The notes: generated by a model from the sequence alone, not told the origin. DNA of 64,000 nt from an uncultured bacterium (GCA_964596685.1 CAZQVA010000004.1:15004-79003); one strand, 5' to 3'; counted from the first letter of the stretch, positions 7,934-29,448 are shown. Made by a program: numbers and translations.

Positions 7934-7934
7934 G

Positions 7935-8921: not shown

Positions 8922-8923
8922 CG

Positions 8924-9642: not shown

Positions 9643-9651
9643 GACTGAACA

Positions 9652-13333: not shown

Positions 13334-13404
13334 TGCTGAGGTGGTCACCGTGATTTTCGGATAGGTTTGGGTTGCGACACTCGAACCTGACGGAAGGAAC
13401 CACG

Positions 13405-14674: not shown

Positions 14675-14911
14675 GCAGATCAGCGGCGTAATGGCTTACA
14701 TCTCGATGGTGCGGTTAATAGGTCCTGACCCTAACTTTGCGCAAAATCAAAGAGCGCATATCTCATAAATTAATGATATTAATTTCTTATACAAATCTGA
14801 CCCCCGGTCGTTAATTCGCGGGCGCGTGTATTTTGGATCGGACACGGTGTCCCATCCGAGACCTGTAGACTATGCAATCCCCCCCCCACCCCCGCACAAT
14901 TTTCGCGCTGA

Positions 14912-17900
14912 TCAGGCGGTCAGATCCGCGGGTTTAACGATCTCATACCTGGTAAGCTCACCCAGCCGCGCGGACAGCCACTCGCGAGGGTCAGGTATCA
15001 AGTTTAGGTCAAACATCGCAGCCCGGATCTTCTGTCCTGCGCCCGCGGGCTGGTAGGTCACCATAGCGGAGGAGGGGGACATTTCGCTATTATAGAACAT
15101 CTCATAATAGCCATTTGTCCCCCTCCTCTTGGCATCCTTCTTGGCAATCTCGCGGGTCGGCCACAGCTCCGGGAAGCACTTGGCCCGGTCGGCGGCGTTG
15201 TCGAGAACCACTCCGCGCGAGGCCATCATGTCGATGCGGCTGGGAACGAGCGCGGCCCAGTCGATCACCTCGTCAGCGGTGACGGGCAGCACAATGTCGG
15301 TGAGCAGGTCGATCTGCAGGGGATTGTCAGCTGTACGATTGACGCCCCGGCCGCGTCCCATTGCCTGAATCAACTCGCCCTCGCAGATATTCCAGCGAAT
15401 TGCTTCCGCGATTGGATCGGGATGATGTTCGCCCATGACCAAGCGGGATCGTCCATTGGGCCGACGGATCACCCGTTCGGTCAGCGGGTACCACCAGCTT
15501 TGGTTGTCATTGTCTTTTTGGGGCGGACGCCCGGTCAGCGCGATCTGCAGCTTGGCGATCAAAGAAGGTGCCGGCAGCGTACGACCCATGATGACCATGC
15601 CGGTGACATTGCCCCAACGATCCATCCCGCTCAGCGCATTGAAATGCGCGGTCTCCAGATTGGCCGGCAGGTCAGACTGGCTCAGGGCTGCCACCGCCCG
15701 CATTTGCCCGATGGCGAGTACCGCGGCTGTTCCGCCACCCATCTGCATTGACCGCGCGGTAAGGTAGGTACGCAGGGCTCGCAGGTTGTTGGCCGCTGTC
15801 GTACGCTCCCGGTCCTTCGCCTGCGGCCCCGGCACCAGCGCCTTGCTGCTTACCGGCGCCCCCAGGACCTGTCGGATCCGCACATGCGGTGTCCTGGCGC
15901 TTACGGCCGGGGCCACGGAAATGCCGGGCAGAAAGGGCGTCACCAGTTCCTGCCGCATCGTCGCGTCGATGTGCAGGACCGGTATATTCTCGATCCACCC
16001 AGTCCGGATCGATGACCGCCACAGGAGGTCCAGCGACCTGACCGTGCCGCCCGGCGTATGCATTCGGCCAACCTGAACACCCCAGGCATCATGACCTTCT
16101 TCCAGCGCCTGAGCCAGGATTGACCACATGGCTGCAGCACGACCCGGCGGAGCCCAGGCGTTCTTGCGCCGCGGCATCACTGCACCCAGCCGTTTGGCGC
16201 GTTCTTCAACTGACATGCCCGGCAAAATACCCGGATCCGGTAGTCTGCCTCGTTCGAGCTTTGCTGCGTCCCGGCAGATGCTCGGGGTCAGTCTGGCGGC
16301 CCGCAAGTCAGCAAGGCGAAGGGGGCCTTCCCGGGTCCGCTCCAGCACCTTCCAGAGCTTCAACCGATGCTCGATCAGGAACTGGGTCTCGGGATAGTCA
16401 TAGGCATTCTTGTGGTCGTAGCAGCGCAGGTCCGCGTCATAAGGATCGAGGCTATCGACGGTGATCTGGACCGGACTGTCCGTGCCGCGCAGACCCGACT
16501 GCCAGAACCCCTCGTCGATCACCAAAAGTGCCGGCCGCCCGATGACCTTGGGCATCGCATGGAACAGGCTGTCATGCGCACAGATGATGACCTGCGCCGA
16601 CTTGGCGATGAGCTTCTGCCGCTGGTATCCGCAGACCTCGTAATGCGGGCAGTAGAAGGTCTTGGTGTCACCCTTGACCTTGCACACGGCCTGTTCAACG
16701 GAGAGTTCGGCTGCCAGTGCATCGGCCTGTGCGTCGGGATCAAGACACATGCGTTGGTCCGGGTTCTCCGGCACGGGATCCGGCGCGGTGCGGCCTTTCC
16801 AGAGAACTGCTGCTACGCCGGCCCTGGCAAAAGCATCAACCTGTTCTTCCCCCAGATCGTGGCGCGGTACTGCAAAGACAACCTTGCCACCGCCAAGCCG
16901 TTTAGCTGCCAATGCCGCGATGATCTGGCCACGGACCTGACTGGTTTTGCCAAGACCAACGTCGACCGGTAATCCGAGCAGCGGCGGCTTTGGGGCATTT
17001 GCTGCCTCGCCCCCGTTCAGGTCCTGCGCTGCCGCTTCGTGGAAGGCAGTAACCTCGTCCATGAAAGTAGCAATGCGGCTGGCAAGTTGGGCGCGTGCAC
17101 CAGCAACATCATGCTCGGGCTCTGGATAAGTTGGCTCCTTTCCACCAACCCAGTCTGCAGCTGCAATGGCCGAACGCAAGGCCTCGATCCCTTCGGCCCT
17201 GACCAGATCATTGGCATCGCCCGAGATCGGCGGAATGACCAACCGCGCATCATTTTCACGCGCCGCTTCGGTTGCCGCAGTTACGCCTGGATTATCGGCT
17301 CGACCGGACTTGGCATCGTTGTCAGCCACGATGACCAGCTCAAGGTCGGGATAGCGCCCGCGCAGCACCCGGGTGACGCGAATTAAGCTTCCAGCATCAA
17401 ATGCCGCCACGACCGGCTTACCCGTCGCCTCATAGATGCTTGCCGCAGTGGCCCAGCCTTCGCAGACCAGCAGATGAGAGGCGTCCTTGGTCCACTCACC
17501 GAGCACGGCAAAATGGTTGGTCTTGATACCGCCGGTCAGAAACCGCTTGTTACCTTCTGCATCGATGCGCTGGAGCGTGTGGATGGCACCATCGATATCT
17601 CGTAGGCCAATGACGAGCCGCCCTTGCGTGTCGACGAAGATGCCGTTGGGCTGGATCCCCTTGCCGACGAGATAGGGATGATCCGCAAGAGCCGGCTGAG
17701 CTTCAGCGAGGATTTGCTGCGCCACCTTCTGAGCCTTGGCAGCCATCTCATCCCGGTACGGATCGTCAGCGCTGCGTGTGGTTTCAACCGATGGCCTGAC
17801 ACCCGTGCGATCGGCAATCCAGTCGCAAGCTTGGACATAGCTGCAACCCAATACAGATGTGACGAGCGCGACAAGCCCGCCGCCACGCCCGGCTTCGTGG

Positions 17901-18718
17901 TCGTACCACTGGCCTGGCTTGGCACCGTCCACCCGAACCGAGAGACTGCCTCTGCCCCGGTAGCGCCATTCCCGGTCTGTCTTGGCTGATGGTTGGCCCA
18001 GCAGCTCGATAAGAAGCCGCGGCAGCCCTTTCTCCATGTCGGAGAAGATCGCTGGCTCACCCCTGCCAGGTTTAATCAGCTGGTAGTCTGTATTGCGGGC
18101 CGGCAACCGCAGCGGAGATGTTAGCTTGGTTGTCTCTGCAGGCAGCGCGGGAGCCCGCAAGACCTCGGCCAGCCACTCGGGCATATCGGCGAGCTGTGAC
18201 TGACCGGGAGCACTCTCCCAAGCGTACAAAGCGCCGCTGGGATGGAGGCTGCCGGGGCCAACCACGTAACCGCCGTCCCCGCGTATATCCATGCCGGGCA
18301 GAAAGCCTGCGCGATTGGCAATCTTGTAGCCGGGATGACGGAAGTAGACATGCTGGCCCTTACCGGTCCGGACTATCAGAGTGTCTGGAAGACCCCGTCG
18401 CTGCGCCTCGGCAATCGCCTCGTAGTTATCGAGATCAAGGACGACCAGTCCGCTGACCTCGCCAGTGACAATCCCGATGTTGCCGCTCGGCAAGGCTTTG
18501 AACCATGCCTCGATGTCGCTACGCGAAGCGCGCGCCTTTTGATAAGCTTGCCAGGCGATGCGCGGACGCTTGTCGGCAGGTTTGAGGGGGATCAGGCTGA
18601 ATCCCAGATCGTGCAGGGCCAACCAGTTTTGGAAGTCCGCAGCCGCTGTGCCTAGTAGTGCTTGCTGGGCGGCAGTCATGCCGTGTCGCGTCCTCTTGAA
18701 GGAAAGGGGACACGACAA
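14912..18718 (-). CDS. Multidomain replication protein: N-terminal AEP PrimPol, DnaG-like Toprim primase module, C-terminal P-loop helicase-like ATPase
   Basis: N-terminus has VVLDLD, GKGQHVYF and DIRGDGGYVVGPGS (bifunctional primase/polymerase). The middle has SLSV...GQWYDHEAGRGGGLVALV followed by LLVCEGWATAASI...VIVADNDAKSG (Toprim E and DxD). The C-terminal part has GLGKTS (Walker A) and LLVIDEGFWQ (Walker B). An alternative start is M14 at 18679. Confidence 0.8.
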   Translation of the reverse strand: MSCPLSFKRTRHGMTAAQQALLGTAAADFQNWLALHDLGFSLIPLKPADKRPRIAWQAYQKARASRSDIEAWFKALPSGNIGIVTGEVSGLVVLDLDNYEAIAEAQRRGLPDTLIVRTGKGQHVYFRHPGYKIANRAGFLPGMDIRGDGGYVVGPGSLHPSGALYAWESAPGQSQLADMPEWLAEVLRAPALPAETTKLTSPLRLPARNTDYQLIKPGRGEPAIFSDMEKGLPRLLIELLGQPSAKTDREWRYRGRGSLSVRVDGAKPGQWYDHEAGRGGGLVALVTSVLGCSYVQACDWIADRTGVRPSVETTRSADDPYRDEMAAKAQKVAQQILAEAQPALADHPYLVGKGIQPNGIFVDTQGRLVIGLRDIDGAIHTLQRIDAEGNKRFLTGGIKTNHFAVLGEWTKDASHLLVCEGWATAASIYEATGKPVVAAFDAGSLIRVTRVLRGRYPDLELVIVADNDAKSGRADNPGVTAATEAARENDARLVIPPISGDANDLVRAEGIEALRSAIAAADWVGGKEPTYPEPEHDVAGARAQLASRIATFMDEVTAFHEAAAQDLNGGEAANAPKPPLLGLPVDVGLGKTSQVRGQIIAALAAKRLGGGKVVFAVPRHDLGEEQVDAFARAGVAAVLWKGRTAPDPVPENPDQRMCLDPDAQADALAAELSVEQAVCKVKGDTKTFYCPHYEVCGYQRQKLIAKSAQVIICAHDSLFHAMPKVIGRPALLVIDEGFWQSGLRGTDSPVQITVDSLDPYDADLRCYDHKNAYDYPETQFLIEHRLKLWKVLERTREGPLRLADLRAARLTPSICRDAAKLERGRLPDPGILPGMSVEERAKRLGAVMPRRKNAWAPPGRAAAMWSILAQALEEGHDAWGVQVGRMHTPGGTVRSLDLLWRSSIRTGWIENIPVLHIDATMRQELVTPFLPGISVAPAVSARTPHVRIRQVLGAPVSSKALVPGPQAKDRERTTAANNLRALRTYLTARSMQMGGGTAAVLAIGQMRAVAALSQSDLPANLETAHFNALSGMDRWGNVTGMVIMGRTLPAPSLIAKLQIALTGRPPQKDNDNQSWWYPLTERVIRRPNGRSRLVMGEHHPDPIAEAIRWNICEGELIQAMGRGRGVNRTADNPLQIDLLTDIVLPVTADEVIDWAALVPSRIDMMASRGVVLDNAADRAKCFPELWPTREIAKKDAKRRGTNGYYEMFYNSEMSPSSAMVTYQPAGAGQKIRAAMFDLNLIPDPREWLSARLGELTRYEIVKPADLTA

Positions 18719-18788
18719 AAGTCATCATTTTTGGACCGCTGAAACGTTCGAAGCGGTCAGCGGTCGAAACTGTATTCGAGACCTCGCA

Positions 18789-18808
18789 GGGTTGAAGGGT
18801 TGAACCCT
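18789..18808. repeat. 20-bp repeat copy 1 (GGGTTGAAGGGTTGAACCCT) containing the palindrome AGGGTTGAACCCT
   Basis: 19/20 identical to 19601-19620. It lies between the 230-aa gene and the PrimPol gene start. Confidence 0.8.
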
Positions 18809-18829
18809 AGTGGCAGTTCCGCGATGCGA

Positions 18830-19522
18830 TCATCGCCAGCTCCGCTTGCTGCCTCCGCGCTGAGATGACGGCAGACGAATGATCGTCGCCATCGCTTTGG
18901 CGAGGTTGCCAGACACCGGCTCGCCCTCAATGTCCTGGTCCTTGAACCAGTCAACCAGCACCTCCTTCTTGGACTGGTCCAAATCGTCGATGCCATTCTC
19001 AGCAATCGCGCGATCGATCAGGTCGAGGTAGGGTGTGGTGTAATCGGTGGGCTCGATCGGCTTGGGCGGCGGAAGTGTCCAGATTGCCTCGACCATGAAC
19101 CGCGGGATCTGGATGTTGATATATTCGCCGTCCTGCAGTTCTAGCCGTTCGGGCAGGCTGCCATCGTCAACATGCAACACCCCGCTGATCCAATGCTCTG
19201 GCTGTATCCAGACAAGCTGGCTGGAGTGGAAAATCCATTCCCGCGCGTCGCGGTCCGGGAAGACCGGATTGCGGCTGTTGGAATGGCGGCCTTGCGCATG
19301 CACGCTGCCCTGGCGCAAGGCCTGCCAAAGCTGGCGGGAGGCATCGAGGTTGATGTTCTGCCAGCGAGATGATCCTGACGCGGTCGGTGAGAGCAGCTTG
19401 CCGATATCGAGCACGACCTTTTCACCGGTCGCCGCCTCATGCCGCGCTCGGCAAATCCGGCAGATGTACCGGTAGGTTTGATCAAGGGACCAGAGGGTGC
19501 GGTCGAGTGTGTCGATGGGCAT
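18830..19522 (-). CDS. Hypothetical protein (230 aa), first gene of the PrimPol transcription unit
   Basis: Long ORF with codon usage consistent with its neighbours. No motif recognised. Confidence 0.6.
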   Translation of the reverse strand: MPIDTLDRTLWSLDQTYRYICRICRARHEAATGEKVVLDIGKLLSPTASGSSRWQNINLDASRQLWQALRQGSVHAQGRHSNSRNPVFPDRDAREWIFHSSQLVWIQPEHWISGVLHVDDGSLPERLELQDGEYINIQIPRFMVEAIWTLPPPKPIEPTDYTTPYLDLIDRAIAENGIDDLDQSKKEVLVDWFKDQDIEGEPVSGNLAKAMATIIRLPSSQRGGSKRSWR

Positions 19523-19600
19523 TTGTGTTCCGAATCATGAGCGGACGAGGCTGGAACATAAAATGAACATAAGTGCCCTGCAAGGCCATCACCACGCAAT

Positions 19601-19620
19601 GGGTTGAAGGGTTCAACCCT
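19601..19620. repeat. 20-bp repeat copy 2 (GGGTTGAAGGGTTCAACCCT)
   Basis: 19/20 identical to 18789-18808. It lies in the divergent intergenic region about 80 bp upstream of the 230-aa gene. Confidence 0.8.
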
Positions 19621-19795
19621 TCTGGGGGTAAAGCTGTGAAGCACTGGCGAACCCCTTCGAACGTAGCGGGATATTGCCGGATTCGGCGATCCTGCGGCCA
19701 TGATCAAAGTCGACTTATCTTCCATCGCCAGCGCCAACGACGACATGCCCAGATATGGGGCCATGAAGCGTCCCAATGCGCTCCATCCCAGCCTG

Positions 19796-19966
19796 ATGAC
19801 GCCTGCCGAGCGGCGCTCTGAACTCTGCGCAATTCTGGGTCTGGGCATCGTCCGCCTGCACCTGCGCAATAGGGGGCAACTGTCCCCTCAAAGCGGAGAC
19901 TTTCCGCTACACTTCACGCCCGAACAGAGCGGTAGTGCGGCTCCAACTCGAAGGAGAGCTGCATGA
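19796..19966 (+). CDS. Small hypothetical protein preceding DUF2924 (start uncertain; track ORF begins at 19700)
   Basis: Its stop overlaps the DUF2924 ATG (ATGA at 19963-19966), which suggests translational coupling. It contains MTPAERRSELCAILGLGIVRLHLR. Confidence 0.4.
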   Translation: MTPAERRSELCAILGLGIVRLHLRNRGQLSPQSGDFPLHFTPEQSGSAAPTRRRAA

Positions 19967-20415
19967 CCAATACCAACCCGATCCCGGCGCGCCTGGCAGC
20001 GCTGAAGACCATGTCTGGCGCTGAACTGAAGAAACAATGGCGGGCCCTGTTCAACACTGAGCCGCCCCTGTTCAATCGGCGCTACATTGAAACCAGACTG
20101 GGCTACCGGATCCAGGAGCTCACCCATGGCGGACTGAAGCCTGAGACAATCCGGCGCCTGCAGGACCTGGGCGAGCAGCTCGATGGCGGGAACATTGCCA
20201 CCCGCCGCATCCGCACGGACCTGAAACCCATCATCGGCACGCGCCTGATCCGCGAATGGCAGGGCACCGAACACTGCGTGACCGTCACGCGCGACGGGTT
20301 CGAATGGCAGGGCCGACCCTACAAATCACTGTCGGCCATCGCGCGGACCATCACCGGCACGCGCTGGAACGGCTGGGTCTTCTTCGGTCTCAAGCATCAC
20401 AGGAGGGCGGCATGA
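19963..20415 (+). CDS. DUF2924-like protein (recombinase-associated)
   Basis: 150 aa with L..MSGAELKKQWRALF..EPP.FNRRYIETRLGYRIQEL, the pattern I associate with DUF2924. It sits immediately upstream of a serine recombinase with an ATGA overlap. Confidence 0.75.
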   Translation: MTNTNPIPARLAALKTMSGAELKKQWRALFNTEPPLFNRRYIETRLGYRIQELTHGGLKPETIRRLQDLGEQLDGGNIATRRIRTDLKPIIGTRLIREWQGTEHCVTVTRDGFEWQGRPYKSLSAIARTITGTRWNGWVFFGLKHHRRAA

Positions 20416-21707
20416 ACACGCCAATTACGCGCAAGCTGCGCTGTGCGGTCTATACGCGCAAATCATCGGAAGAAGGGCTCGAACAGGAGTTCAACAGCCT
20501 GCACGCCCAGCGTGAGGCCTGCGAAGCCTTTATCGCCAGCCAGCGCAACGAAGGCTGGGTGCTGGTTCGCGACCAGTATGACGATGGCGGAGTATCGGGC
20601 GGCACGTTGGAGCGGTCAGGGCTGCAACGCCTTCTCTCAGATATCGAAGACGGACTGGTCGACGTGGTGGTAGTCTACAAGATCGACCGCCTGTCGCGCT
20701 CGCTGATGGACTTCGCCAAGCTGGTCGAGGTGTTCGACCGTAATGAGGTGACGTTCGTGTCGGTCACCCAGTCGTTCAATACGACCACATCCATGGGCCG
20801 GCTGACCCTCAATGTCCTGTTGTCATTCGCGCAGTTCGAGCGCGAAGTGACCGGCGAACGCATCCGCGACAAGATTGCGGCGTCGCGCGCCAAGGGCATG
20901 TGGATGGGCGGCTGCCCGCCGCTGGGTTATGACGTTGAGGCCCGCAAGCTGGTGATCAACGACGTCGAGGCCGACCATGTCCGCTACATCTTCGACCAGT
21001 TTGCCCAGTGCGGATCGGCAACGGTCATGCTGCGCGATCTCAGGAACCGCGGGATCACCACCAAGCAGGGTGGGATCATTACCAAGGGGTTCCTGCACCG
21101 CCTCATGAACAACCGGGTTTATCTAGGCGAAGCGGTCCACAAGGGCACCAGTTATCCCGGTGAGCACAAGGCGATCATCACGCAGGATGCCTGGGACAAG
21201 GCCCACGCAATCCTGACCGAGAGCCCTCGCAAGCGGGCAGCACATACGCGCTGCAACACCCCTGCATTGCTCAAGGGCCTGCTGTGGGGTCCGGATGGCG
21301 CGGCGTTCTCACCAACCCACACCCGGAAGGGTGGCAAGCTCTACCGCTACTATGTCAGCCAGTCGGTGCTGCGCCATGGCGCTGGTGTCTGCCCCGTTGG
21401 CCGTGTCCCAGCCGCCGAGATCGAGAGCGCGGTCATCGAGCAGCTGCGGGCCATATTCCGGCAGCCGGAAATCCTGGCCGGATCAACAAAGGCAGCCCGA
21501 GGTCATCTGCCAGTCATTACCGAGGAGGAAGCCCGAATGGCGCTGACCACGCTCGATCCCATGTGGGATGAACTGTTCCCGGCCGAGCAGACCCGCATCG
21601 TGCAAATGCTCGTCGAGCGGGTTGATGTCGGCACCGATGGTTTTGACGTCCAGCTGCGGCTCGACGGCATGGCCACATTTGCACAAGAGATGAGGGAGGC
21701 AGCATGA
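20412..21707 (+). CDS. Large serine recombinase (resolvase/invertase N-domain plus recombinase domain)
   Basis: RCAVYTRKSSEEGLEQEFNSLHAQREAC (catalytic Ser region), VVVYKIDRLSRS, and LSFAQFEREVTGERIRDKI followed by the recombinase/zinc-ribbon region. Confidence 0.92.
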   Translation: MNTPITRKLRCAVYTRKSSEEGLEQEFNSLHAQREACEAFIASQRNEGWVLVRDQYDDGGVSGGTLERSGLQRLLSDIEDGLVDVVVVYKIDRLSRSLMDFAKLVEVFDRNEVTFVSVTQSFNTTTSMGRLTLNVLLSFAQFEREVTGERIRDKIAASRAKGMWMGGCPPLGYDVEARKLVINDVEADHVRYIFDQFAQCGSATVMLRDLRNRGITTKQGGIITKGFLHRLMNNRVYLGEAVHKGTSYPGEHKAIITQDAWDKAHAILTESPRKRAAHTRCNTPALLKGLLWGPDGAAFSPTHTRKGGKLYRYYVSQSVLRHGAGVCPVGRVPAAEIESAVIEQLRAIFRQPEILAGSTKAARGHLPVITEEEARMALTTLDPMWDELFPAEQTRIVQMLVERVDVGTDGFDVQLRLDGMATFAQEMREAA

Positions 21708-22084
21708 CCGACACCGAGATCGTAACCGTCCATGTCCCGTTCCACATTCGCAAGCGTGGTGGCCGCAAGGAGATGATCCTGCCCGATGCGGCGCTGACCA
21801 AGCACCGGCATGTCGACAATACCCTGATCAAGGGACTTGCCCGCGCTTTCCGGTGGAAGTGGATGCTGGATACCGGCGCATGTCCGACCCTTGGCGACCT
21901 TGCCGCCCAGGAGAAGATATCGCCGTCCTACCTTACGCGCGTACTGCGGCTGACCTTGCTGGCGCCAGACATCATCGATGCGATCCTGGATGGGCAGCTG
22001 GGGCCTGACACCACACTGGCGACCCTAATGGACCCGTTTCCGATCGATTGGGACGAGCAACGCCGGCATTTTTCGGAGGTTTAG
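21704..22084 (+). CDS. Recombinase-associated small protein with HTH-like segment
   Basis: 126 aa, overlaps the recombinase stop. It contains ISPSYLTRVLRLTLLAPDIIDAILDG and ends ...FPIDWDEQRRHFSEV. Confidence 0.65.
   Translation: MTDTEIVTVHVPFHIRKRGGRKEMILPDAALTKHRHVDNTLIKGLARAFRWKWMLDTGACPTLGDLAAQEKISPSYLTRVLRLTLLAPDIIDAILDGQLGPDTTLATLMDPFPIDWDEQRRHFSEV
22031..22062 (+). repeat. Left copy of a ~32-bp imperfect direct repeat (core GTTTCCGATCGATTGGG at 22036-22052)
   Basis: The 17-nt core is identical to 26963-26979, and similarity extends on both sides (about 27/32). It lies inside the 3' end of CDS 21704-22084. Confidence 0.85.
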
Positions 22085-22294
22085 TTTAGCGCTGGTCATG
22101 GCGACCAAGCGGACGGAAGGGATGATCAGTTTGCGTTCCGGAAGATCGGCTCTAGCAGGTAAGATTGGGAATGCGGACGTCCGCTAGCCGGTGCGTGGCG
22201 TCGATAGACGAGACCTCCCTGGCCGAACATTACGGCATAGCAGACACTGCGAACGTGTAATGTTCGCACAAGCGCGGACCTACTTCGAATGCCG

Positions 22295-22957
22295 TCAAAG
22301 CGCGTACGCCAGTGGGTCAGTTGATGCGCTCTGGAGCGAATTTGTTATGAAGTGAAGGTCAGCGATCAGCCCCCAAAGCGCCCAAGGACCTTGGGCTACG
22401 AGCCCGCTCCTTGAAGCATACAGTCCGGCGTCTATGACCAAAGCGCCCATAATATTCGGGCACGCGTTCAAGTTATTCTGCAAGGTCGAGATGTTTTTCC
22501 AGCCAGTATAGCCAACAGCAAACAACGGGATCTGTGATGCAGGGCCGTTTCCAAAGCTCATGCTCGCACCGAAGGAGCGGTGAAGTGTAGCAAGAGCATT
22601 CGCAGTATTTACAGCATCGGTCCATTGATTCGCGAGGTTCGATTTGACCTCAACAACTGCCGCCGCAGCCTCGGCCAGATAGAGACGCGTTTGTCCTGCA
22701 CCTACGGTTGGTAAAGACGGCGCAAACGGATATTCAACTACTACGTCAAGTTGACCGCTTTTGGCGCCTGATGCGTCCGTGGCATCTCCAGTCCCAAACC
22801 TATAGATCGGAGGCAGAACTTTGGCGAGAAACTCATCTATAAACGCAGCCCGTTCTTGACCAATTGTGGCAGATGAAAGCCCAACGCTGCTCTGGTAGAT
22901 GCCGTTAAGAATTGCCTGAAGGCCCGTTAGTCTTTGCAGTACATGTGGGTTGGGCAT
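22295..22957 (-). CDS. PD-(D/E)xK-fold nuclease-like protein (DUF6602-like)
   Basis: 220 aa with GQERAAFIDEFLAKVLP...GDATDASGAKSGQLDVVVEY...AVVEVKSNL, a D...(D/E)xK arrangement. A GGAGGA RBS lies 8 nt upstream. GC is visibly lower than in the core genes. Confidence 0.7.
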   Translation of the reverse strand: MPNPHVLQRLTGLQAILNGIYQSSVGLSSATIGQERAAFIDEFLAKVLPPIYRFGTGDATDASGAKSGQLDVVVEYPFAPSLPTVGAGQTRLYLAEAAAAVVEVKSNLANQWTDAVNTANALATLHRSFGASMSFGNGPASQIPLFAVGYTGWKNISTLQNNLNACPNIMGALVIDAGLYASRSGLVAQGPWALWGLIADLHFITNSLQSASTDPLAYAL

Positions 22958-23166
22958 CTAGGCTTTCCTCCGAAGCTGTCCACGAACGCATACGCAACTG
23001 TATTATGTAACTGGACAAGATTGTCTTCAGGGCGACCTGCGCCACCCTGACGGGCCCGCTCCCGACAGATTGGGATGCGTACACCGGTATTTCCTATGAA
23101 GGCCGGAGGCGCCTCGAATGCAACCAGACGTGAAAAGAAATCCGATATGGGCTACGGTCGCCTGCG

Positions 23167-26100
23167 ATGCGCTTTCTCGCCAACGGCCCCTCGATCCCTG
23201 ATGAACTGCTCGTCGCACGCGATGCGGGCGACGTGGTCTTCTTCTGCGGCGCCGGCGTGTCGCGCCATCTGGCTAAATTGCCGGACTTTCTCAAACTCGG
23301 CGGCGACGTCATCACCCTGCTCGGTGCCAGCGAAAAGAGCCTGGCACGCAAGCTCTTTCGGCGCGTCCAGTCGATGGCAGAAGACCCTATCAAGGGTGTC
23401 GGCAGCCTGATCGCCACCGACCGGATTTTCAGCCTGCTCGAGCGCGAATTCGAGCGCGAAGAGATCTGCAATCGGATCGCAATTGCCATCAAACCGGCCG
23501 CAGATGTCGACCTCAGCGCCCACCGAACGTTGCTCGACTTGTCCCGTGGTCCCCATGGCCAGATCCGACTGGTCACGACCAATTTCGATCTGTTGTTCGA
23601 GGCCTGCGTTGATGACACAGTGCCACGCTGGGGGCCGCCGGCTCTTCCCAACGCACAAAGCGAGCGGTTTAGTGGCATCGTTCACCTCCACGGTCGTGTC
23701 GATACCAATTATGCAGCGGCCGGGGACGATGAGTTTATCGTCTCGAGCGGTGATTTCGGGCGCGCCTATCTCTCGGACGGTTGGGCCACCCGCTTCATGC
23801 AAGGGCTGCTTGCACGGTTCCAAATCGTCTTCGTCGGCTACGCGGCCGACGACCCCCCGGTCAGCTATTTGCTTGAGGCCTTAAACCTGCGAGCGGGAAG
23901 CCAACGTGGCCTATATGCCTTCCAGTCTGGCATCAACGACGACGAGAAGGCCCTGTGGTGGCATCGCGGTGTCCACGCAATCGAGTATGAGGCCGAGGAT
24001 TTCACGCCGCTTTGGGGCAGTCTCGCACTTTGGGCAGATCGGGCACGGGATAGTGATGTATGGCATGATCGGCTACTCGCGGAGGCAGCTGAGGGCCCAG
24101 CGGCCCTCGAACCCCACCGCCGCGGACAGATCGCGCATATGCTGCGTACCCGAGAGGGGACGCGGCGTATCAGCATCGCGGAGGTGCCTCTCCCTGCCTC
24201 CTGGTTGCTGGCGCTGGATCCCAGTTTGCGGTTCGAGAAAGCGGGTGCAGTGGATCCTTATGATGAATCGAGTGAGCGGATCGACCCATACGAGAGCCTG
24301 AGCTTCGACTTCGACATCCCCCCACAACCGGCTGATGACGACTTGCGCGGCGAGCGAAAAATTCCGGAGGGCAGCTGGGACGCTTTCCTGCCGCACAGCG
24401 TCGATAGCGACGATAGCAAAGACGGCGATCTAGTCGCGTTCTGCGGCCGTCATGCCGGCGTGCCCGGACCGCTTAACAATCGGCTTCACAATCTCGCGAT
24501 TTGGTTCGCGCGAATCGCGCACGACCCGATCGCCTTATGGTGGGCAGCAGGGCGCGGTCCGTTGCACCCCCAGATGATCGAATCGATCCGCATGAGGATG
24601 AGGCAAGAACCGGATCACTGGACGGACGAAATCAGACGCGGCTGGCAGACCTTGTTCAGAGGTTGGTCCGATCGGCGCGAGGACACCAATAGTGCCTATT
24701 TTCTGCTCAGCGACCGTGTTGCTCGCGAGGGATGGTCAGATTCAATCGTGCGCGACTATGCGGACATCTTCAAGCCGCAACTTATAGTAAAACGCCGCTT
24801 CGGCATCCGCCATCCGCTTACCTGGACTGAGACCGACCGTCCCAATCCGGTTCTGGCCTATGGTGTCGACTATCCCCATCCCTATGACCAGCTGCCGATC
24901 CCCGATACCAAGCTCAGCTATGCGATCACAAGGTTTCGTGAAAACCTTGATCTCGCTCGGTCTCTAGAAGCCGAAATTTCCGGTGGACCCAACGTCTATC
25001 TGACCACGACACGCGCCGACGATGGCGCTCCCCCGATCTCCTTCGACGCCTTCGGACTTACCGGGCCGGTCGCACTATTCCAGCAGCTCATGGATAGTCT
25101 GGCTGAGCATTCGCCTGAGCAGGCCAGAACCGAGATCGCGCGGTGGCCAGCCGATGACGATCATATTTACGCACGGTTACGGATCTGGGCGGCCAGCAAG
25201 GCTTTGCTTACCCCTAGTGAGGCTGCCGACATGATCCTCGGACTGTCCGATCGCGCATTTTGGGACTCGGAGCATCAACGGGATCTGCTTTTTGCGATCC
25301 GCGACCGTTGGGAGGGCTTTACCCACGCTGACCGGGTGCGGATTGAAGACCGCATCCTCACCACGACCTATCCTTGGACCTCGGATACACGCGGTGATGC
25401 AGAAGCCCATTACCGATTGGATCGCCTTTTCTGGCTAGATAAAGTGGGTGTCCGCTTTTCCTTCGACCTCGCCGCGGAGATGGTGAAGTTGCGCACTATT
25501 GCCAATCGATGGACCCCACGATCGGGCGATGAAGCTGCGAACTCGACTGCTCCCGAGGTACATAGCGTCGAGACCGATGCCAATCCGCGCGTGTTGGAGG
25601 GTGTACCGCTCGCCGAGGTGCTTGATCGGGCGCGCGAAGCTGGACAAAGTGATTTTTTCGATTTCGTCGAGCATCGACCTTTCAGCGGTCTTGCCGACAC
25701 GCGTCCAAAACGGGCGCTGGCCGTACTGAGCCACGCCGCGCGCCGCGGCGAAGTTCCAGCCAATTTCTGGGCGGCCTTCCTCTATGCGGAGAGCCGCGAG
25801 GCGGACGATGATCGGCTCGTGCGCGTCATCGCAGGCCGGCTCGCGTCGCTGCCGGTCGAGGGGCTCAGCCAAATCGCTTACCCCGTGTCCGAATGGTTGC
25901 GCGAACGGGGGGCACAAGCCTTTGCTCACGAGACCAAAGCAGTAGACCTTCTGTGGCCGAGACTGATGATTGCGCTCCGACAGCGCGATGACGGTCGCAA
26001 GCGACGGGTCGACAGCAGCTGGGCGAACGACGCTCTGAATGCGCCTGTCGGTAAGCTTGTCGATCTTTTGATGAAGGATCCCGCCCTGAAAGGGCTTGGC

Positions 26101-26955
26101 GCGGGAAGCATTTTGCCAGCGCTTTGGCGCGCTCGTGCAGAGGCCCTGCTCGAGTTGCCCGGCGACATGCGACGCCACGCGCTTGTAATGCTAGGCCACC
26201 GGACGACATGGCTCTTTTATGTCGATCCTGCGTGGACCAAGGCGAAGCTGCTGACGAGCGCCAATCTCCTCGATGATGACGGTGACGCCTTTTGGGATGG
26301 CCTGCTCTGGGCGGCGCGCGCGCCGTCCCCGACTTTGTTCGAGCGGTTGAAGCCGTCCCTCACGATCCGCGCAACTTCACCGACGCGACGCCGGGCCGAA
26401 GCCAATGTAATCGGCGCCTTCCTTCTGATCGGCTGGGGTGAGGCCGGCGGCGGAGCGCCCAAGCCGTTGATCAGCGATGCGGAACTTAGGACGATCCTAG
26501 TGGAGTGCGACGACGATCTGCGGGGACAGGTCCTCTGGCATATGGAGCATTGGTCGGTTGATCCGGACCAACCCTGGCGGGCGAGGCTCTTACCGTTCCT
26601 AGTCGACGTCTGGCCCTATCATCGCGCGGTGCGGACAGCCGAGATGTCAGTTCGTTTGGCCGATCTTGCGCTCTCGAGCGGGGATCTATTTCCGCAGGTG
26701 GTTACGGCTATCCTGACGCGCCTGGTGCCAATCCGAAATGGCCTGTTGCGCGGCTTCATGATGCAAGAGGGGACACAGGATCATCCAGCCATCCACTATC
26801 CGGCCGCAATGCTCGATCTGCTCTGGGCGATCTTAGCCGAGGATGTTGCCCAGTGGCCCTATAAGGTCGAGGAAGTCTTCGATTTTCTGACACAAGCTGA
26901 GGAGACGCGGGCTGATCCGCGCCTATCTGAGTTGCGGCGGCGGCGACTGAGCTGA
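23167..26955 (+). CDS. SIR2-domain protein with ~1000-aa C-terminal region of unknown function (defence-associated-sirtuin-like architecture)
   Basis: The first ~240 aa carry VVFFCGAGVS, LVTTNFDLLFE, IVHLHGRV and IVFVGYAADDPP (SIR2_2-type NADase motifs). The rest is Trp/Arg/Leu-rich, with no Walker or other motif recognised. Confidence 0.85.
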   Translation: MRFLANGPSIPDELLVARDAGDVVFFCGAGVSRHLAKLPDFLKLGGDVITLLGASEKSLARKLFRRVQSMAEDPIKGVGSLIATDRIFSLLEREFEREEICNRIAIAIKPAADVDLSAHRTLLDLSRGPHGQIRLVTTNFDLLFEACVDDTVPRWGPPALPNAQSERFSGIVHLHGRVDTNYAAAGDDEFIVSSGDFGRAYLSDGWATRFMQGLLARFQIVFVGYAADDPPVSYLLEALNLRAGSQRGLYAFQSGINDDEKALWWHRGVHAIEYEAEDFTPLWGSLALWADRARDSDVWHDRLLAEAAEGPAALEPHRRGQIAHMLRTREGTRRISIAEVPLPASWLLALDPSLRFEKAGAVDPYDESSERIDPYESLSFDFDIPPQPADDDLRGERKIPEGSWDAFLPHSVDSDDSKDGDLVAFCGRHAGVPGPLNNRLHNLAIWFARIAHDPIALWWAAGRGPLHPQMIESIRMRMRQEPDHWTDEIRRGWQTLFRGWSDRREDTNSAYFLLSDRVAREGWSDSIVRDYADIFKPQLIVKRRFGIRHPLTWTETDRPNPVLAYGVDYPHPYDQLPIPDTKLSYAITRFRENLDLARSLEAEISGGPNVYLTTTRADDGAPPISFDAFGLTGPVALFQQLMDSLAEHSPEQARTEIARWPADDDHIYARLRIWAASKALLTPSEAADMILGLSDRAFWDSEHQRDLLFAIRDRWEGFTHADRVRIEDRILTTTYPWTSDTRGDAEAHYRLDRLFWLDKVGVRFSFDLAAEMVKLRTIANRWTPRSGDEAANSTAPEVHSVETDANPRVLEGVPLAEVLDRAREAGQSDFFDFVEHRPFSGLADTRPKRALAVLSHAARRGEVPANFWAAFLYAESREADDDRLVRVIAGRLASLPVEGLSQIAYPVSEWLRERGAQAFAHETKAVDLLWPRLMIALRQRDDGRKRRVDSSWANDALNAPVGKLVDLLMKDPALKGLGAGSILPALWRARAEALLELPGDMRRHALVMLGHRTTWLFYVDPAWTKAKLLTSANLLDDDGDAFWDGLLWAARAPSPTLFERLKPSLTIRATSPTRRRAEANVIGAFLLIGWGEAGGGAPKPLISDAELRTILVECDDDLRGQVLWHMEHWSVDPDQPWRARLLPFLVDVWPYHRAVRTAEMSVRLADLALSSGDLFPQVVTAILTRLVPIRNGLLRGFMMQEGTQDHPAIHYPAAMLDLLWAILAEDVAQWPYKVEEVFDFLTQAEETRADPRLSELRRRRLS

Positions 26956-26957
26956 CA

Positions 26958-26989
26958 GCCCGGTTTCCGATCGATTGGGCCGGGCAAAG
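26958..26989 (+). repeat. Right copy of the ~32-bp imperfect direct repeat (core 26963-26979)
   Basis: It starts 3 nt after the SIR2 stop. Read in the frame of the left copy it encodes FPIDWAGQRFDDRFSWS-stop, resembling the FPIDWDEQRRHF end of CDS 21704-22084. Confidence 0.85.
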
Positions 26990-27447
26990 ATTTGATGACA
27001 GATTCTCCTGGTCATGATCAGACCGCGTTCCAACCCGAAGCTGCTTGCTCTCAAAAACGTCTGAAATTCAGGCAATTATCTGCTCTTCACCGGACCTTGT
27101 TTAGGTAACAGCTTTGGAGAAAATGCGACTTAGGAGAACACTCTTGAGCCATCGCCACAGAGGCTAGGTGAATAGCCCACCGCCATAACCCTTGAATATA
27201 ACAGGATTTTTGAGGGAGTCCCCAGAAAGAGAATACTTTCATAGGGTTAAATGGCGGAGGGCAGTCGACCGGCGTCGAACCTTCTCTGCAAACTAACCCA
27301 TTGATTATTATATAATCGAGGTGAGTTCGAATCCCGCTCAAAGCGGTTGGCAAAAGTTGGATTCGTACGGGTCCTCAACACTGGAGAAAATCAGCCTTCT
27401 TGAAATGTCCGGCGTTATACCGTACAAGGACCGCAAGGAGATTGCCC

Positions 27448-27756
27448 ATGTTTGCCCTAGAAACCGTTACCCCGACCCCGGGCAAAATGGAGGCCCGCAA
27501 AGAGGTGCGCATGCACCGTGCCGACGAGGAGCGGATCAAGGCCGCAGCTGCCGCCACTGGCTTGCAGGAGGCGGACTTTATTCGTCAGGCCGCTCTTCTC
27601 CGTGCGCAGGAGGTTGAGCAGCGCATGTCTCTGTCGATTTTGCCGATTGAGGCATTCGAAGCCTTTAAAGCCGCTGTCGATGCACCGGGCAAGAAGATGC
27701 CCGGCCTCGCCCGAGCAGCCAAGGCAACGAAGGGCCTGCTCAAGGATGCCGGCTGA
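27448..27756 (+). CDS. DUF1778-family (TacA-like) type II antitoxin
   Basis: ATG at 27448 with an AAGGAG RBS at 27435-27440. A RHH-like segment (VRMHRADEERIKAAAAATGLQEADFIRQAAL) is present. It overlaps the downstream GNAT gene by 11 nt. Confidence 0.8.
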   Translation: MFALETVTPTPGKMEARKEVRMHRADEERIKAAAAATGLQEADFIRQAALLRAQEVEQRMSLSILPIEAFEAFKAAVDAPGKKMPGLARAAKATKGLLKDAG

Positions 27757-28291
27757 ACCCGGGGCTGAACTCCCAGCCCTGACAATCGCCAAATTCGACA
27801 AGGCGCTGCATGATCGCAGCGCTTTTTCATGTGGCTTTGCGCCGATCGACAATTTCCTGAAATCGTCCCTTTCCGACCAGGTCAAGGACGGCATGGTCAC
27901 TGCTTGGATCGCAACGGCCAACGGGGATAGCGCGGTACTCGGGTTCTACACGCTTGGTGCCATGGCCGTGAGAGCGGAATTCGGCCCGAAGAAATGGCAG
28001 CGAGCCCGGGTTCCAGATGTCCCGGTCATCTACATTCGAGCAGTAGCCGTCCGCGAGGACATGCAGGGCAAAAGCCTTGGCACCGCGCTCGTCATTGATG
28101 CGATGAAGCGATGCGCTGGCATCGCCGACCAAATAGGCGCGGCCGCCATCGTGCTTGACGTGCTGGACGGCGATCAATTCGACCGGCGATGGAAATTCTA
28201 CGTTGATCTCGGCTTCCTCCCGCTGGGTGATACGGACAACCCTCGCCGGGTGTTCATTCCAATGGCTGATGTCAGGGCCACACTGGCATGA
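27746..28291 (+). CDS. GNAT-family acetyltransferase toxin (TacT-like)
   Basis: FSCGFAPIDNFLK..., GFYTLGAMAV..., and VIYIRAVAVREDMQGKSLGTALVIDAM...FYVDLGFLPLG (acetyl-CoA binding Q/RxxGxG/A pattern). It is paired with a DUF1778 gene. Confidence 0.85.
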   Translation: MPAEPGAELPALTIAKFDKALHDRSAFSCGFAPIDNFLKSSLSDQVKDGMVTAWIATANGDSAVLGFYTLGAMAVRAEFGPKKWQRARVPDVPVIYIRAVAVREDMQGKSLGTALVIDAMKRCAGIADQIGAAAIVLDVLDGDQFDRRWKFYVDLGFLPLGDTDNPRRVFIPMADVRATLA

Positions 28292-28666: not shown

Positions 28667-29448
28667 TGCGAAACGCTCTCCGTTGGTAAGGGGAGGGTGA
28701 TGCAACAGATATCCTTCAGGCGGCACCGGTTTTCCCCGGATGTGATCCGATATGCGGTTTGGCTCTATTATCGTTTCACGATGAGCCTGCGCGATGTCGA
28801 AGACTTGCTGGCGGAGCGCGGGATCGATGTGAGCTACGAGACCGTAAGATGCTGGGCGAACAAGTTCGGCCCGGCCATCGCGGCCAACATCCGCAAGGCG
28901 CGCGGGCGTGCCGACAGTGTCTGGCACCTCGATGAAATGGTGGTCCGCATCAACGGCAAGAGGATGTACATGTGGCGGGCCGTCGACAAAGAGGGCGAGG
29001 TCCTCGACATGCTGGTGCAAAAGCGTCGGAATAAGGCTGCTGCACTGAAATTACTCAGGAAACTGCTCAAGAACCAGGGCGCGGCACCGGAGCAGATCGT
29101 GACCGATTGTCTGGCTTCGTATAGGGCCGCGATGAAGGCTCTGGGTTGCCGCAGCAAGCACTACCCTGGGCGATTACGGGACAACAACAGGGTGGAGAAC
29201 TCGCACCTGCCAGTCCGACGAAGAGAGCGAAAGATGCAGCGTTTCAAGTCCCAGGGCCAGGCGCAGCGCTTCGTTTCCATCCACTCCGCAATCTACAACA
29301 CCTTCGCCATCCAGCGTCACCTCGTTTCCCGCAAGACCATGCGCATCTTTCGCGCGGCAGCATTTGCCGAATGGAGCGCTGCGTCCGGGACGTGCGCCTA
29401 AATCCTGCCTGATGGGGCGTATCTGGTGCGGTGAGATTTAACCTGACA
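28656..29448 (+). mobile_element. IS6-family insertion sequence (about 0.79 kb; ends approximate)
   Basis: Single IS6/IS26-type transposase gene flanked by imperfect inverted ends sharing TGTCAG (28656-28661; CTGACA at 29443-29448), about 14/21 matches. The flanks are unrelated and no 8-bp duplication is present. Confidence 0.8.
28697..29401 (+). CDS. IS6-family transposase
   Basis: FRRHRFSPDVIRYAVWLYYRFTMSLRDVEDLLAERGIDVSYETV..WHLDEMVVRINGKRMYMWRAVD...TDCLASY...NRVENSH is characteristic of IS6 DDE transposases. The GTG at 28697 is followed immediately by an ATG at 28700. Confidence 0.92.
   Translation: MMQQISFRRHRFSPDVIRYAVWLYYRFTMSLRDVEDLLAERGIDVSYETVRCWANKFGPAIAANIRKARGRADSVWHLDEMVVRINGKRMYMWRAVDKEGEVLDMLVQKRRNKAAALKLLRKLLKNQGAAPEQIVTDCLASYRAAMKALGCRSKHYPGRLRDNNRVENSHLPVRRRERKMQRFKSQGQAQRFVSIHSAIYNTFAIQRHLVSRKTMRIFRAAAFAEWSAASGTCA

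What the first reader, a model, noticed from the sequence alone, without database searches (positions are those of the whole stretch)
22031..26989. The SIR2/nuclease cassette is bracketed by a ~32-bp imperfect direct repeat duplicating the 3' end of the upstream gene
GTTTCCGATCGATTGGG occurs identically at 22036-22052 and 26963-26979, and similarity extends a few bases on each side (about 27/32 overall). The left copy is the end of the recombinase-associated gene and encodes ...DPFPIDWDEQRRHFSEV-stop. The right copy begins 3 nt after the SIR2 stop. In the same frame it reads ARFPIDWAGQRFDDRFSWS-stop, a plausible alternative or ancestral C-terminus that keeps FPIDW..QR. So the ~4.9-kb segment carrying exactly the two candidate defence genes looks like a discrete cassette. 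It seems to have been inserted or exchanged by recombination within the 3' end of a conserved element gene, as expected of a cargo hotspot.
Basis: seen in the sequence. Interest (0 to 1): 0.7.

Follow-up and report, generated by a model that had tools for sequence, protein, structure and literature searches.

The report
Cargo slot marked by duplicated gene end
The repeat is real: it marks the two edges of a variable cargo slot in a small mobile element that inserts next to tRNA-Ser genes, and related elements carry nothing or other genes there, an ordinary kind of arrangement in an element family I found undescribed.

Summary
Observation confirmed. GTTTCCGATCGATTGGG is exact at 22036-22052 and 26963-26979, 27/32 over the stated span, with about 0.01 matches expected by chance.

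- Nine related Sphingomonadales loci are "empty". Their 126-aa gene runs straight into the block that follows the right copy and ends ...FPIDWDEQRLDDRFSRS*, almost the right-copy reading.
- Five other loci carry unrelated cargo at the same place. A sixth, L164, has the cargo-type gene end but its contig stops before any cargo.

Context: a ~12.5-kb integrative element (about 14,740-27,259) with PrimPol-Toprim, DUF2924, a large serine recombinase, a 126-aa ParB-like protein, the cargo slot, and a ~270-bp conserved end arm. Copies 100% identical over the stretch compared, cassette included, abut two different tRNA-Ser genes and other sites.

The right copy is the displaced, non-coding 3' end of an empty-type allele. 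In other loci this remnant starts at different positions, up to ~35 nt further upstream, and is decayed. I therefore favour homologous or illegitimate recombination between related elements over a precise integrase reaction. The mechanism is inferred, not shown. No otherwise identical empty copy and no circular form was found.

DSR1-like and DUF6602 travel separately elsewhere. New member of a known kind (cargo or defence hotspot); moderate interest.

The parts
14740..27259 (.). Integrative element, about 12.5 kb. The right end is exact; the left end is approximate.
   Evidence: Contigs 99.8-100% identical to the window over the stretch they share stop matching at 27257-27259 and continue into different DNA; one reaches 27359. 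Synteny with L003-L010 starts at window 14736-14798. An IS256-type transposase and nar/moa genes lie to the left.
14912..18718 (-). PrimPol-Toprim replication protein (1268 aa)
   Evidence: Pfam Prim-Pol 4.8e-35 and Toprim_3 3e-11. Matches PHROG DNA primase families.
18830..19522 (-). 230-aa conserved element protein of unknown function
   Evidence: Present in every related element and identical on 19 contigs. No significant Pfam, NCBIfam or PHROG hit.
19963..20415 (+). DUF2924 protein (150 aa)
   Evidence: Pfam DUF2924 1.1e-50; phrog_11806.
20412..21707 (+). Large serine recombinase (431 aa as called on identical contigs), probably the integrase of the element
   Evidence: Pfam Resolvase, Recombinase and Zn_ribbon_recom. 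phrog_95 integrase 4e-105. It is the only recombinase in the element. No long direct repeat at the element ends.
21704..22084 (+). 126-aa gene, weakly ParB/KorB-like helix-turn-helix protein; its 3' end is the left edge of the cargo slot
   Evidence: At least 7978 homologues. phrog_14161. AF2 model pLDDT 71, with ParB, SopB, Spo0J, Noc and KorB as the top but weak fold matches.
22033..22060 (+). Left repeat copy: functional gene end encoding PFPIDWDEQ
22085..26959 (.). Variable cargo segment, absent from empty relatives and replaced by other genes in others
22295..22957 (-). DUF6602 / PD-(D/E)xK-type nuclease candidate (220 aa)
   Evidence: Pfam DUF6602 4.7e-13. PADLOC PD_DExK 4.4e-14 and NucC 7e-07.
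23167..26955 (+). DSR1-like SIR2 protein (1262 aa), full length
   Evidence: Pfam SIR2_2. PADLOC Dsr1 2.4e-74. NCBIfam Dsr1 336.9 bits, below the 1400-bit cut-off. Homologues are 1262-1266 aa with 100% coverage.
26960..26987 (+). Right repeat copy: non-coding remnant of the gene end
   Evidence: 25/28 identical to the left copy.
26964..27017 (+). Remnant reading frame FPIDWAGQRFDDRFSWS*, the displaced tail of an empty-type allele
   Evidence: Compare the real C-termini of P0001 and P0002 and of L004-L007, L020 and L023.
26988..27259 (+). Conserved end arm of the element, presumably the attachment-site arm. It encodes the LDD-type tail in empty elements.
   Evidence: 72-89% identical in the close loci matched over window ~26952-27259 (L001-L007, L009, L010, L020, L023); L008, L173 and L175 match only from 27103 on. 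Motifs are conserved even in relatives 59-63% identical at protein level. In the six cargo-bearing loci aligned, sequence conservation begins directly after the Q codon.
27252..27259 (+). TGGCGGAG: the end of the element, identical to the 3' end of tRNA-Ser read on the opposite strand

Best explanation
The two repeat copies are the two edges of a variable cargo slot in a small integrative element that inserts next to tRNA-Ser genes.

SHOWN:
- The element spans about 14,740-27,259. It consists of a PrimPol-Toprim gene, a 230-aa gene, DUF2924, a large serine recombinase, a 126-aa ParB-like gene, the slot, and a ~270-bp conserved end arm that stops at TGGCGGAG.
- Copies 100% identical over the shared stretch, cassette included, abut tRNA-Ser(cga), tRNA-Ser(gga) and other sequences. 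The whole element moved recently with its cargo on board.
- In cargo-free relatives the 126-aa gene runs directly into the arm, which then encodes its last 10 codons (the LDD-type tail).
- In cargo-bearing relatives the gene has the family-wide RRHF-type tail. Cargo starts at its stop codon. A remnant of the LDD-type gene end precedes the arm.
- The right copy in the window is therefore the displaced, now non-coding 3' end of an empty-type allele.

INFERRED:
- An RRHF-type gene end plus cargo entered an empty-type element by recombination between related elements. These elements do sit in tandem at the same tRNA-Ser.
- The left junction formed by homology within the recombinase module. The right junction formed by an illegitimate or short-homology join, or a later deletion, within roughly the last 65 nt of the resident gene.
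- Only such products persist. A longer remnant would recombine with the intact gene and delete the cargo. A join beyond the Q codon would damage the arm.
- Recombination between the two copies can regenerate the empty form.
- Cargo then turns over gene by gene. DSR1-like and DUF6602 are separate modules.

The serine recombinase most likely integrates the whole element. It is not shown to act at the repeat.
For: - Repeat real and non-random.
- Empty sites with a single common junction in nine loci.
- Their C-termini match the right-copy reading.
- Different cargo at the same slot: L002 (408 aa), L008 (553 aa, SEC-C motif), L009 (677 aa), L173 (998 aa, RelA_SpoT), L175 (lone 593-aa serine recombinase)..
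- No shared sequence after the stop codons of cargo-bearing loci.
- Element end at 27259, with 99.8-100% identical copies over the shared stretch in different contexts.
- tRNA-Ser next to the arm in 12 loci.
- Arm conserved family-wide, and relatives 59-63% identical carry 0.9-8.6 kb of cargo in the same slot without any remnant.
- The 5' edge of the remnant varies. In L173 and L175 it lies ~35 nt upstream of the core, in L008 about 13 nt upstream (possibly ~25, read by eye), in the window ~4 nt, and in L009 and L002 inside the core.
- The remnant decays, with 14-25 of 28 positions matching the locus's own left copy. The next 60 nt stay at 47-55/60.
- Empty and cargo states are interleaved on the backbone tree.
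- Tandem islands at the tRNA-Ser site.
- DSR1 is full length. Its 80%-identical DNA homologue L170 shares only window 23120-26953.
Against: - The mechanism is inferred from end products only. No intermediate was seen: no tandem pair with a full second gene copy and no circular form.
- All six right junctions fall within about 65 nt. I explain this by survivorship, but it is also what a targeted process would give.
- L173 and L175 share the same remnant 5' edge while carrying different cargo. L009 keeps 12/17 of the core upstream of a sharp breakpoint. Both could hint at sequence-directed joining.
- The window's remnant core is a perfect 17/17, so the event is either recent or refreshed by gene conversion.
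- The direction of change (gain here versus loss in relatives) cannot be read from the tree.
- The sample is small: six cargo-bearing and nine or ten empty loci.
Confidence: 0.6

Rival explanations
1. Site-specific cassette capture. The core in the 3' end of the 126-aa gene is an attachment site at which the neighbouring large serine recombinase, or one acting in trans, integrates circular single-gene cassettes and excises them again. This would resemble an integron or SCC element but use a serine recombinase.
For: - The slot lies directly downstream of the recombinase module.
- The cargo fits tightly: it starts at the stop codon and ends 3-7 nt after the DSR1 stop.
- There are six different cargoes, one of which is itself a serine recombinase.
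- A 17-nt exact core contains the palindrome ATCGAT.
- L009 keeps 12/17 of the core at a sharp breakpoint.
- The recombinase's best NCBIfam match is CcrB.
Against: - The 5' edge of the remnant differs by about 35 nt or more between loci, and the remnant decays as unconstrained DNA.
- The recombinase's own junction (TGGCGG at the tRNA-Ser end) shows no clear similarity to the core (by eye only).
- Distant relatives hold cargo in the same slot with no second copy.
- Every contig 100% identical to the window's element over the shared stretch carries the cassette, and no otherwise identical empty form was seen.
- The CcrB score is 148.6 bits against a 900-bit cut-off.
- Close homologues of the L175 cargo recombinase sit in unrelated islands. 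Only the gene plus 58 nt is shared.
Confidence: 0.13
2. Loss only. The DSR1/DUF6602 segment and both repeat copies are ancestral in this lineage, nothing was inserted here, and the empty relatives arose repeatedly by deletion between the two copies.
For: - The RRHF-type tail is the family-wide form.
- The outgroups and the basal L164 have it.
- Empty and cargo states are interleaved on the tree, and all empties share one junction, as repeat-mediated deletion would produce.
Against: - The remnant reads as a bona fide LDD-type gene end, and such ends exist only in empty-type elements, including a clade 74% identical. At least one entry of cargo into an empty-type element must therefore have happened.
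- Six unrelated cargoes need repeated acquisition anyway.
- The perfect 17/17 core in the window argues for a young remnant.
Confidence: 0.2
3. The repeat is a transposon target-site duplication, or a chance match, and has no link to the cargo boundaries.
For: IS elements are nearby: an IS256-type transposase at 13372-14607 and an IS6-type at 28697-29401.
Against: - Expected chance matches are 0.01.
- The cargo contains no transposase and no terminal inverted repeats.
- The repeat is long, imperfect and extends into a readable gene tail.
- Empty relatives break exactly at the repeat.
Confidence: 0.02

Closest known systems
Genomic islands in tRNA/tmRNA genes, where the island restores the split gene and a displaced fragment marks the far end (Islander database, PMC4383910)
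   Same: The logic of the repeat is the same: an intact, regenerated gene end on one side of the inserted DNA and a displaced 3' fragment of the same gene on the other. The host element itself sits at a tRNA-Ser 3' end.
   Different: Here the split gene is a protein gene inside a mobile element, not the chromosomal target. The inserted DNA has no integrase. The size of the displaced fragment varies between loci, unlike the fixed crossover of a tyrosine integrase.
Hotspots of defence genes in P2-like prophages and P4-like satellites (PMC9122126), and integrase-associated defence islands in E. coli (PMC10121019)
   Same: Conserved flanks lie within a small mobile element that carries a primase-type replication gene. 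Between the flanks sits unrelated, often single-gene cargo, including a SIR2-family defence gene.
   Different: The recombinase type (large serine), the host group (Sphingomonadales) and the integration site differ. The slot overlaps the 3' end of a backbone gene and leaves a remnant. A defence function is assigned only to the window's cargo.
Tycheposons (bioRxiv 10.1101/2020.12.28.424599)
   Same: Both are small tRNA-targeting elements with an integration module, a primase/replication module and plug-in cargo. Both form tandem arrays and leave partial tRNAs. The preprint notes that 27 of its 937 elements have a large serine recombinase.
   Different: Tycheposons are defined by a specific tyrosine-recombinase lineage in marine cyanobacteria. 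This element has DUF2924, a serine recombinase and a ParB-like protein. No shared hallmark genes were tested.
SCCmec and SCC-like cassettes at the 3' end of rlmH (orfX), moved by the large serine recombinases CcrAB/CcrC
   Same: Both involve a large serine recombinase, direct repeats that duplicate the 3' end of a conserved gene, and recombinase-less cassettes between repeats. CcrB is the best NCBIfam match.
   Different: The score is far below the Ccr cut-off (148.6 versus 900 bits). The target gene is different. The repeat boundary is not fixed. The recombinase lies outside the cassette. No evidence was found that it acts on the repeat.
Integrons
   Same: A recombinase gene sits next to a slot that holds exchangeable, mostly single-gene cargo.
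   Different: There is no tyrosine IntI, no attC-like inverted repeat at the cargo end and only one cargo unit per element. The junctions are imprecise.

Membership tests
Cargo/defence hotspot of an integrative mobile element | The same conserved flanks in related elements | tested here: met
   The 126-aa gene on the left and the ~270-bp arm on the right are present in 15 close loci and, more diverged, in L011, L013, L015 and L018.
Cargo/defence hotspot of an integrative mobile element | Unrelated gene content between the flanks, and empty states | tested here: met
   Six unrelated cargoes (window, L002, L008, L009, L173, L175) and nine empty loci. No shared sequence after the stop codons.
Cargo/defence hotspot of an integrative mobile element | Cargo enriched in anti-phage defence genes | tested here: inconclusive
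   The window holds a DSR1-like protein and a PD-(D/E)xK nuclease candidate. The other cargoes have no PADLOC or Pfam defence assignment. L173 has a RelA_SpoT domain.
Integrative element moved by a large serine recombinase | Recombinase with Resolvase, Recombinase and zinc-ribbon domains as the only recombinase of the element | tested here: met
.
Integrative element moved by a large serine recombinase | The same element at different genomic sites with a sharp common boundary and no long terminal direct repeat | tested here: met
   Copies 100% identical over the shared stretch end at 27257-27259 next to tRNA-Ser(cga), tRNA-Ser(gga) and other DNA. No repeat was found at the left boundary. The left end is only approximate.
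Integrative element moved by a large serine recombinase | Recombinase-dependent integration and excision | not testable with these tools
   Needs an experiment.
SCC / Ccr cassette system | Ccr-type recombinase above the family cut-off | tested here: not met
   CcrB 148.6 bits against a 900-bit cut-off.
SCC / Ccr cassette system | Direct repeats at a fixed position flanking each cassette | tested here: not met
   The remnant 5' edge varies by about 35 nt or more between loci.
Integron | IntI tyrosine recombinase, attI, and attC inverted repeats at cassette ends | tested here: not met
   No tyrosine recombinase in the element. No inverted repeat at the cargo end.
Transposon insertion with target-site duplication | Transposase, terminal inverted repeats and a short exact duplication | tested here: not met
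   The repeat is 27-28 nt long and imperfect.
DSR1 (defence-associated sirtuin 1) | Full-length match to the Dsr1 model above the curated cut-off | tested here: not met
   NCBIfam Dsr1 scores 336.9 bits against a 1400-bit cut-off, with the best-scoring stretch covering residues 1-307. PADLOC Dsr1 is 2.4e-74, also with its best stretch at the N-terminus (residues 1-298). The same overall length, about 1260 aa, is typical of the model. I therefore call it DSR1-like.
ParB/KorB-type DNA-binding proteins (for the 126-aa protein) | Fold match of the helix-turn-helix domain | tested here: inconclusive
   The top 18 Foldseek hits, and most of the top 27, are ParB, SopB, Spo0J, Noc or KorB, but E is 0.1-1.6 and TM 0.36-0.46, on a model with pLDDT 71. 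No Pfam hit.

The most novel reading that the evidence does not exclude
The 3' end of the 126-aa gene is a dedicated capture site. There the adjacent large serine recombinase, with DUF2924 and the ParB-like protein, inserts and excises promoter-carrying single-gene cassettes. That would be a serine-recombinase counterpart of an integron, riding on a mobile tRNA-Ser element. The variable remnant lengths would then reflect later erosion.
Probability: 0.1. Interest if true: 0.85.

Novelty: new member of a known kind. Interest (0 to 1): 0.4.

Why it matters
- It defines a family of small integrative elements that insert at tRNA-Ser and appears undescribed in the literature I could search. The module is DUF2924, a large serine recombinase and a ParB-like protein, with at least 7978 homologues of the small protein.
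- It locates the family's cargo slot to the nucleotide. That gives a practical handle for mining unknown accessory or defence genes in Alphaproteobacteria: take whatever lies between the stop codon of the 126-aa gene and the conserved arm.
- It shows a DSR1-like gene spreading on a recently mobile element.
- The overlap of a gene end with the attachment arm, and the remnant it leaves, show how cargo can be gained without breaking either function.
- It does not by itself reveal a new recombination mechanism.

Tried and rejected
- **Metagenome scan.** The pattern from the arm, AGATTCTCCNGRTCANNATC, was too degenerate.
- **Viral contigs.** Only relatives 59-63% identical were found, and the arm pattern was absent.
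- **Plasmid collection.** There was no close match to the locus or to the arm, only distant protein homologues, mostly in Ralstonia.
- **tRNA and Rfam searches of the window.** Nothing was found. The sequence after 27259 is not a tRNA.
- **Second gene-end copies in 20 loci.** Searches by DNA and by peptide pattern found recognisable remnants only in the window and L008 among the first set.
- **Attachment direct repeat at the left end of the element.** None was found.
- **Whether DSR1 was truncated by the junction.** It is full length.
- **Whether the lone recombinase that forms the L175 cargo marks an integrated island targeting this gene.** Its close homologues lie in unrelated islands and share only the gene plus 58 nt.
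- **The idea that the core is a functional site of the arm.** I rejected it because the remnant core decays in four of six loci while the arm next to it is conserved.
- **Literature.** DUF2924 appears only in three Wolbachia papers in the library.
Full report
**1. Observation**

The 17-mer GTTTCCGATCGATTGGG is present exactly twice in the window, at 22036-22052 and 26963-26979. No further site appears at up to 2 mismatches, and 0.01 matches are expected from shuffles. The similarity extends to 25/28 (22033-22060 versus 26960-26987).

The left copy is the 3' end of ORF 21704-22084, which reads ...DPFPIDWDEQRRHFSEV*. The right copy begins a few bases after the stop of the SIR2 ORF (26953-26955) and reads ...FPIDWAGQRFDDRFSWS* in one frame.

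**2. Genes**

| Coordinates | Strand | Assignment | Evidence |
|---|---|---|---|
| 19963-20415 | + | DUF2924 | Pfam 1.1e-50 |
| 20412-21707 | + | Large serine recombinase | Resolvase, Recombinase, Zn_ribbon_recom; phrog_95 integrase |
| 21704-22084 | + | 126-aa protein | No Pfam family |
| 22295-22957 | - | DUF6602 / PD-(D/E)xK nuclease candidate | |
| 23167-26955 | + | DSR1-like SIR2 protein | PADLOC Dsr1 2.4e-74; NCBIfam Dsr1 336.9 bits against a 1400-bit cut-off, best stretch residues 1-307 |
| 14912-18718 | - | PrimPol-Toprim protein | |

The 126-aa protein has at least 7978 homologues and matches phrog_14161. Its AlphaFold model (pLDDT 71) matches ParB, SopB, Spo0J, Noc and KorB DNA-binding domains best, but weakly (E 0.1-1.6). 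In 36 family members W116 is invariant, and P111, F112, P113 and Q119 are at least 90% conserved. The residues after Q119 are not conserved.

**3. The decisive comparison**

The closest homologues of the 126-aa protein (P0001 and P0002, 96% identical) end ...DPFPIDWDEQRLDDRFSRS. That is not the window's tail. It is almost the right-copy reading.

The contig of P0001 (L001) matches the window up to 22060 and then continues at 26952-27288. The same holds for L003-L007, L010, L020 and L023. All have the gene fused to the block that follows the right copy, at one common junction (...GAGCAA|AGATTGGATGAC...).

Five further loci hold other DNA between the same landmarks:

| Locus | Cargo |
|---|---|
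| L002 | 408-aa protein, no family |
| L008 | 553-aa protein with a SEC-C motif |
| L009 (Sphingorhabdus buctiana) | 677-aa protein |
| L173 | 998-aa RelA_SpoT-domain protein |
| L175 | Lone 593-aa large serine recombinase, 40% identical to the element's own |

A sixth locus, L164, has the cargo-type (RRHL) gene end, but its contig stops 213 nt past the stop codon, so no cargo or right junction was seen.

In all of these the 126-aa gene has an RRHF-type tail like the window's. Nothing is shared after the stop codon.

**4. What the slot belongs to**

The exact DSR1-like protein is on 19 contigs. L028-L033 are 99.8-100% identical to the window over the stretches they share. Their match stops at 27257-27259, or at 27359 in L029. 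Beyond that point lie:
- tRNA-Ser(cga) in L030;
- a sequence matching the 3' end of tRNA-Ser(gga) in L031 and L033, whose contigs stop 14-22 nt past the junction, so no tRNA is called there;
- other DNA in L028, L029 and the window.

The element end is therefore ...AAATGGCGGAG at 27259, and the whole element has moved recently with the cassette on board.

In relatives the same ~270-bp arm abuts a tRNA-Ser gene on the opposite strand. Synteny with relatives starts at about 14,740. To the left lie an IS256-type transposase and nar/moa genes. No direct repeat marks the left end, which fits a serine recombinase as the integrase.

The element is thus about 12.5 kb, or about 7.6 kb without cargo. 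It resembles tycheposons and P4-like satellites in lay-out: an integration module, a primase module and cargo (PMC9122126).

**5. The slot is family-wide; the repeat is not**

Relatives only 59-63% identical (L011, L015, L013, L018) keep the arm motifs AGCTTTGGAGAAnAT, ATAACCCTTGAA and TTAAATGGCGGA. They hold 0.9-8.6 kb of differing DNA between the stop codon and the arm. No second copy of the gene end is present.

RRHF-type tails are the general form of the family. The LDD-type tail occurs where the gene is fused to the arm, including a clade 74% identical (L176). The right copy is therefore a remnant of an empty-type allele. At least one entry of an RRHF-type end plus cargo into an empty-type element must have occurred.

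**6. Site-specific or not**

The 5' edge of the remnant is not fixed:
- L173 and L175: ~35 nt upstream of the core (TGGTCCYGARGC...);
- L008: about 13 nt upstream, possibly ~25 nt (read by eye);
- the window: ~4 nt upstream;
- L009 and L002: inside the core.

Over its last 28 nt the remnant matches the locus's own left copy at these levels:

| Locus | Matches out of 28 |
|---|---|
| Window | 25 |
| L173 | 22 |
| L008 | 20 |
| L009 | 18 |
| L175 | 17 |
| L002 | 14 |

The 60 nt that follow stay at 47-55/60 between elements. Sequence constraint therefore starts right after the Q codon, where the arm begins. The remnant itself is unconstrained, decaying DNA.

The junction that the recombinase does use (TGGCGG at the tRNA-Ser end) shows no clear resemblance to the core, judged by eye only. 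These points argue against a precise integrase reaction at the repeat.

All joins fall within about 65 nt. Survivorship can explain this. A longer remnant would recombine with the intact module and delete the cargo. A join beyond the Q codon would damage the arm. Tandem arrays at the tRNA-Ser site, the raw material for such rearrangements, are seen in the window, L010 and L176.

On a backbone tree, empty and cargo states are interleaved. Gains, losses by recombination between the two copies, and exchange between elements have therefore all probably happened. The direction in the window's own lineage cannot be fixed. No otherwise identical empty copy was found.

**7. The cargo is a mosaic**

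DSR1-like is full length, since its homologues are 1262-1266 aa. Its homologues about 80% identical at DNA level (L170, L171) lie in other contexts and share only window 23120-26953, that is 47 nt upstream through the stop codon. L171 and L172 have a neighbour with no Pfam family on record in place of DUF6602; L170's contig starts only 189 nt upstream of its gene, so its neighbour is unseen.

The recombinase cargo of L175 likewise shares only the gene plus 58 nt with its relatives elsewhere. Cargo therefore turns over as single-gene modules with tight edges.

**8. Verdict**

The most likely origin is recombination between related elements, not a dedicated cassette integrase (confidence 0.6). 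Site-specific capture remains possible (about 0.1-0.15).

In kind this is a cargo or defence hotspot of an integrative element, which is a known phenomenon. It sits in an element family I could not find described; in the library DUF2924 appears only in Wolbachia papers. Interest is moderate.

Noticed in passing
window 27260-27290; also L006:10634, L029:14098, L175:2918: The 25-mer GTCGACCGGCGTCGAACCTTCTCTG follows the element end (TGGCGG..GG.A) in four independent loci, then the sequences diverge. It is not a tRNA according to ARAGORN or Rfam. It could be a recurrent secondary attachment site or the end of another island family that mimics the tRNA-Ser 3' end.
   Followed up: partly
window 27448-28291: A TacA-like antitoxin (PF08681, 6.7e-09) is followed by a GNAT acetyltransferase. 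This is a TacAT-type toxin-antitoxin pair directly outside the element end. An IS6/IS240-type transposase lies at 28697-29401.
   Followed up: partly
window 13372-14607: An IS256/Mutator-family transposase (1.5e-123) abuts the left end of the element. The same arrangement, with the same moa/nar neighbours, is seen on contig L161. The true left end of the element may be disturbed here.
   Followed up: partly
window 1-13100: A respiratory nitrate reductase cluster (narG-like alpha subunit, delta and gamma subunits), a PpiC-type rotamase, and molybdenum cofactor genes (MoaA-like, MoeA). This is ordinary host DNA to the left of the element.
   Followed up: no
L175:754-2535 (minus strand): In one relative the only cargo in the slot is a second large serine recombinase, 593 aa and 40% identical to the element's own. 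Its 85-86% identical homologues act as end genes of unrelated islands that carry DUF6961, SNase or RadC neighbours.
   Followed up: yes
L173:1000-3996 (minus strand): The cargo in another relative is a 998-aa protein with a RelA_SpoT nucleotidyltransferase domain. It may be a defence or toxin-type gene.
   Followed up: no
L003:10001-10558: In this empty element the stop codon of the LDD-type tail is lost (TCATGA has become TCAAAA), and the 126-aa ORF reads through to 185 aa across the arm.
   Followed up: no
L172:2573-11798: A DSR1-like homologue 66% identical lies a few kb from a different DUF3489-DUF2924-serine recombinase module, on its other side. SIR2 genes thus associate with this module type more than once.
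   Followed up: no
window 21704-22084 and its family: The 126-aa protein family is very large: at least 7978 hits in Alphaproteobacteria, with relatives 33-36% identical in Ralstonia megaplasmids, where some are annotated 'LacI family transcriptional regulator'. It has no Pfam or NCBIfam model.
   Followed up: partly
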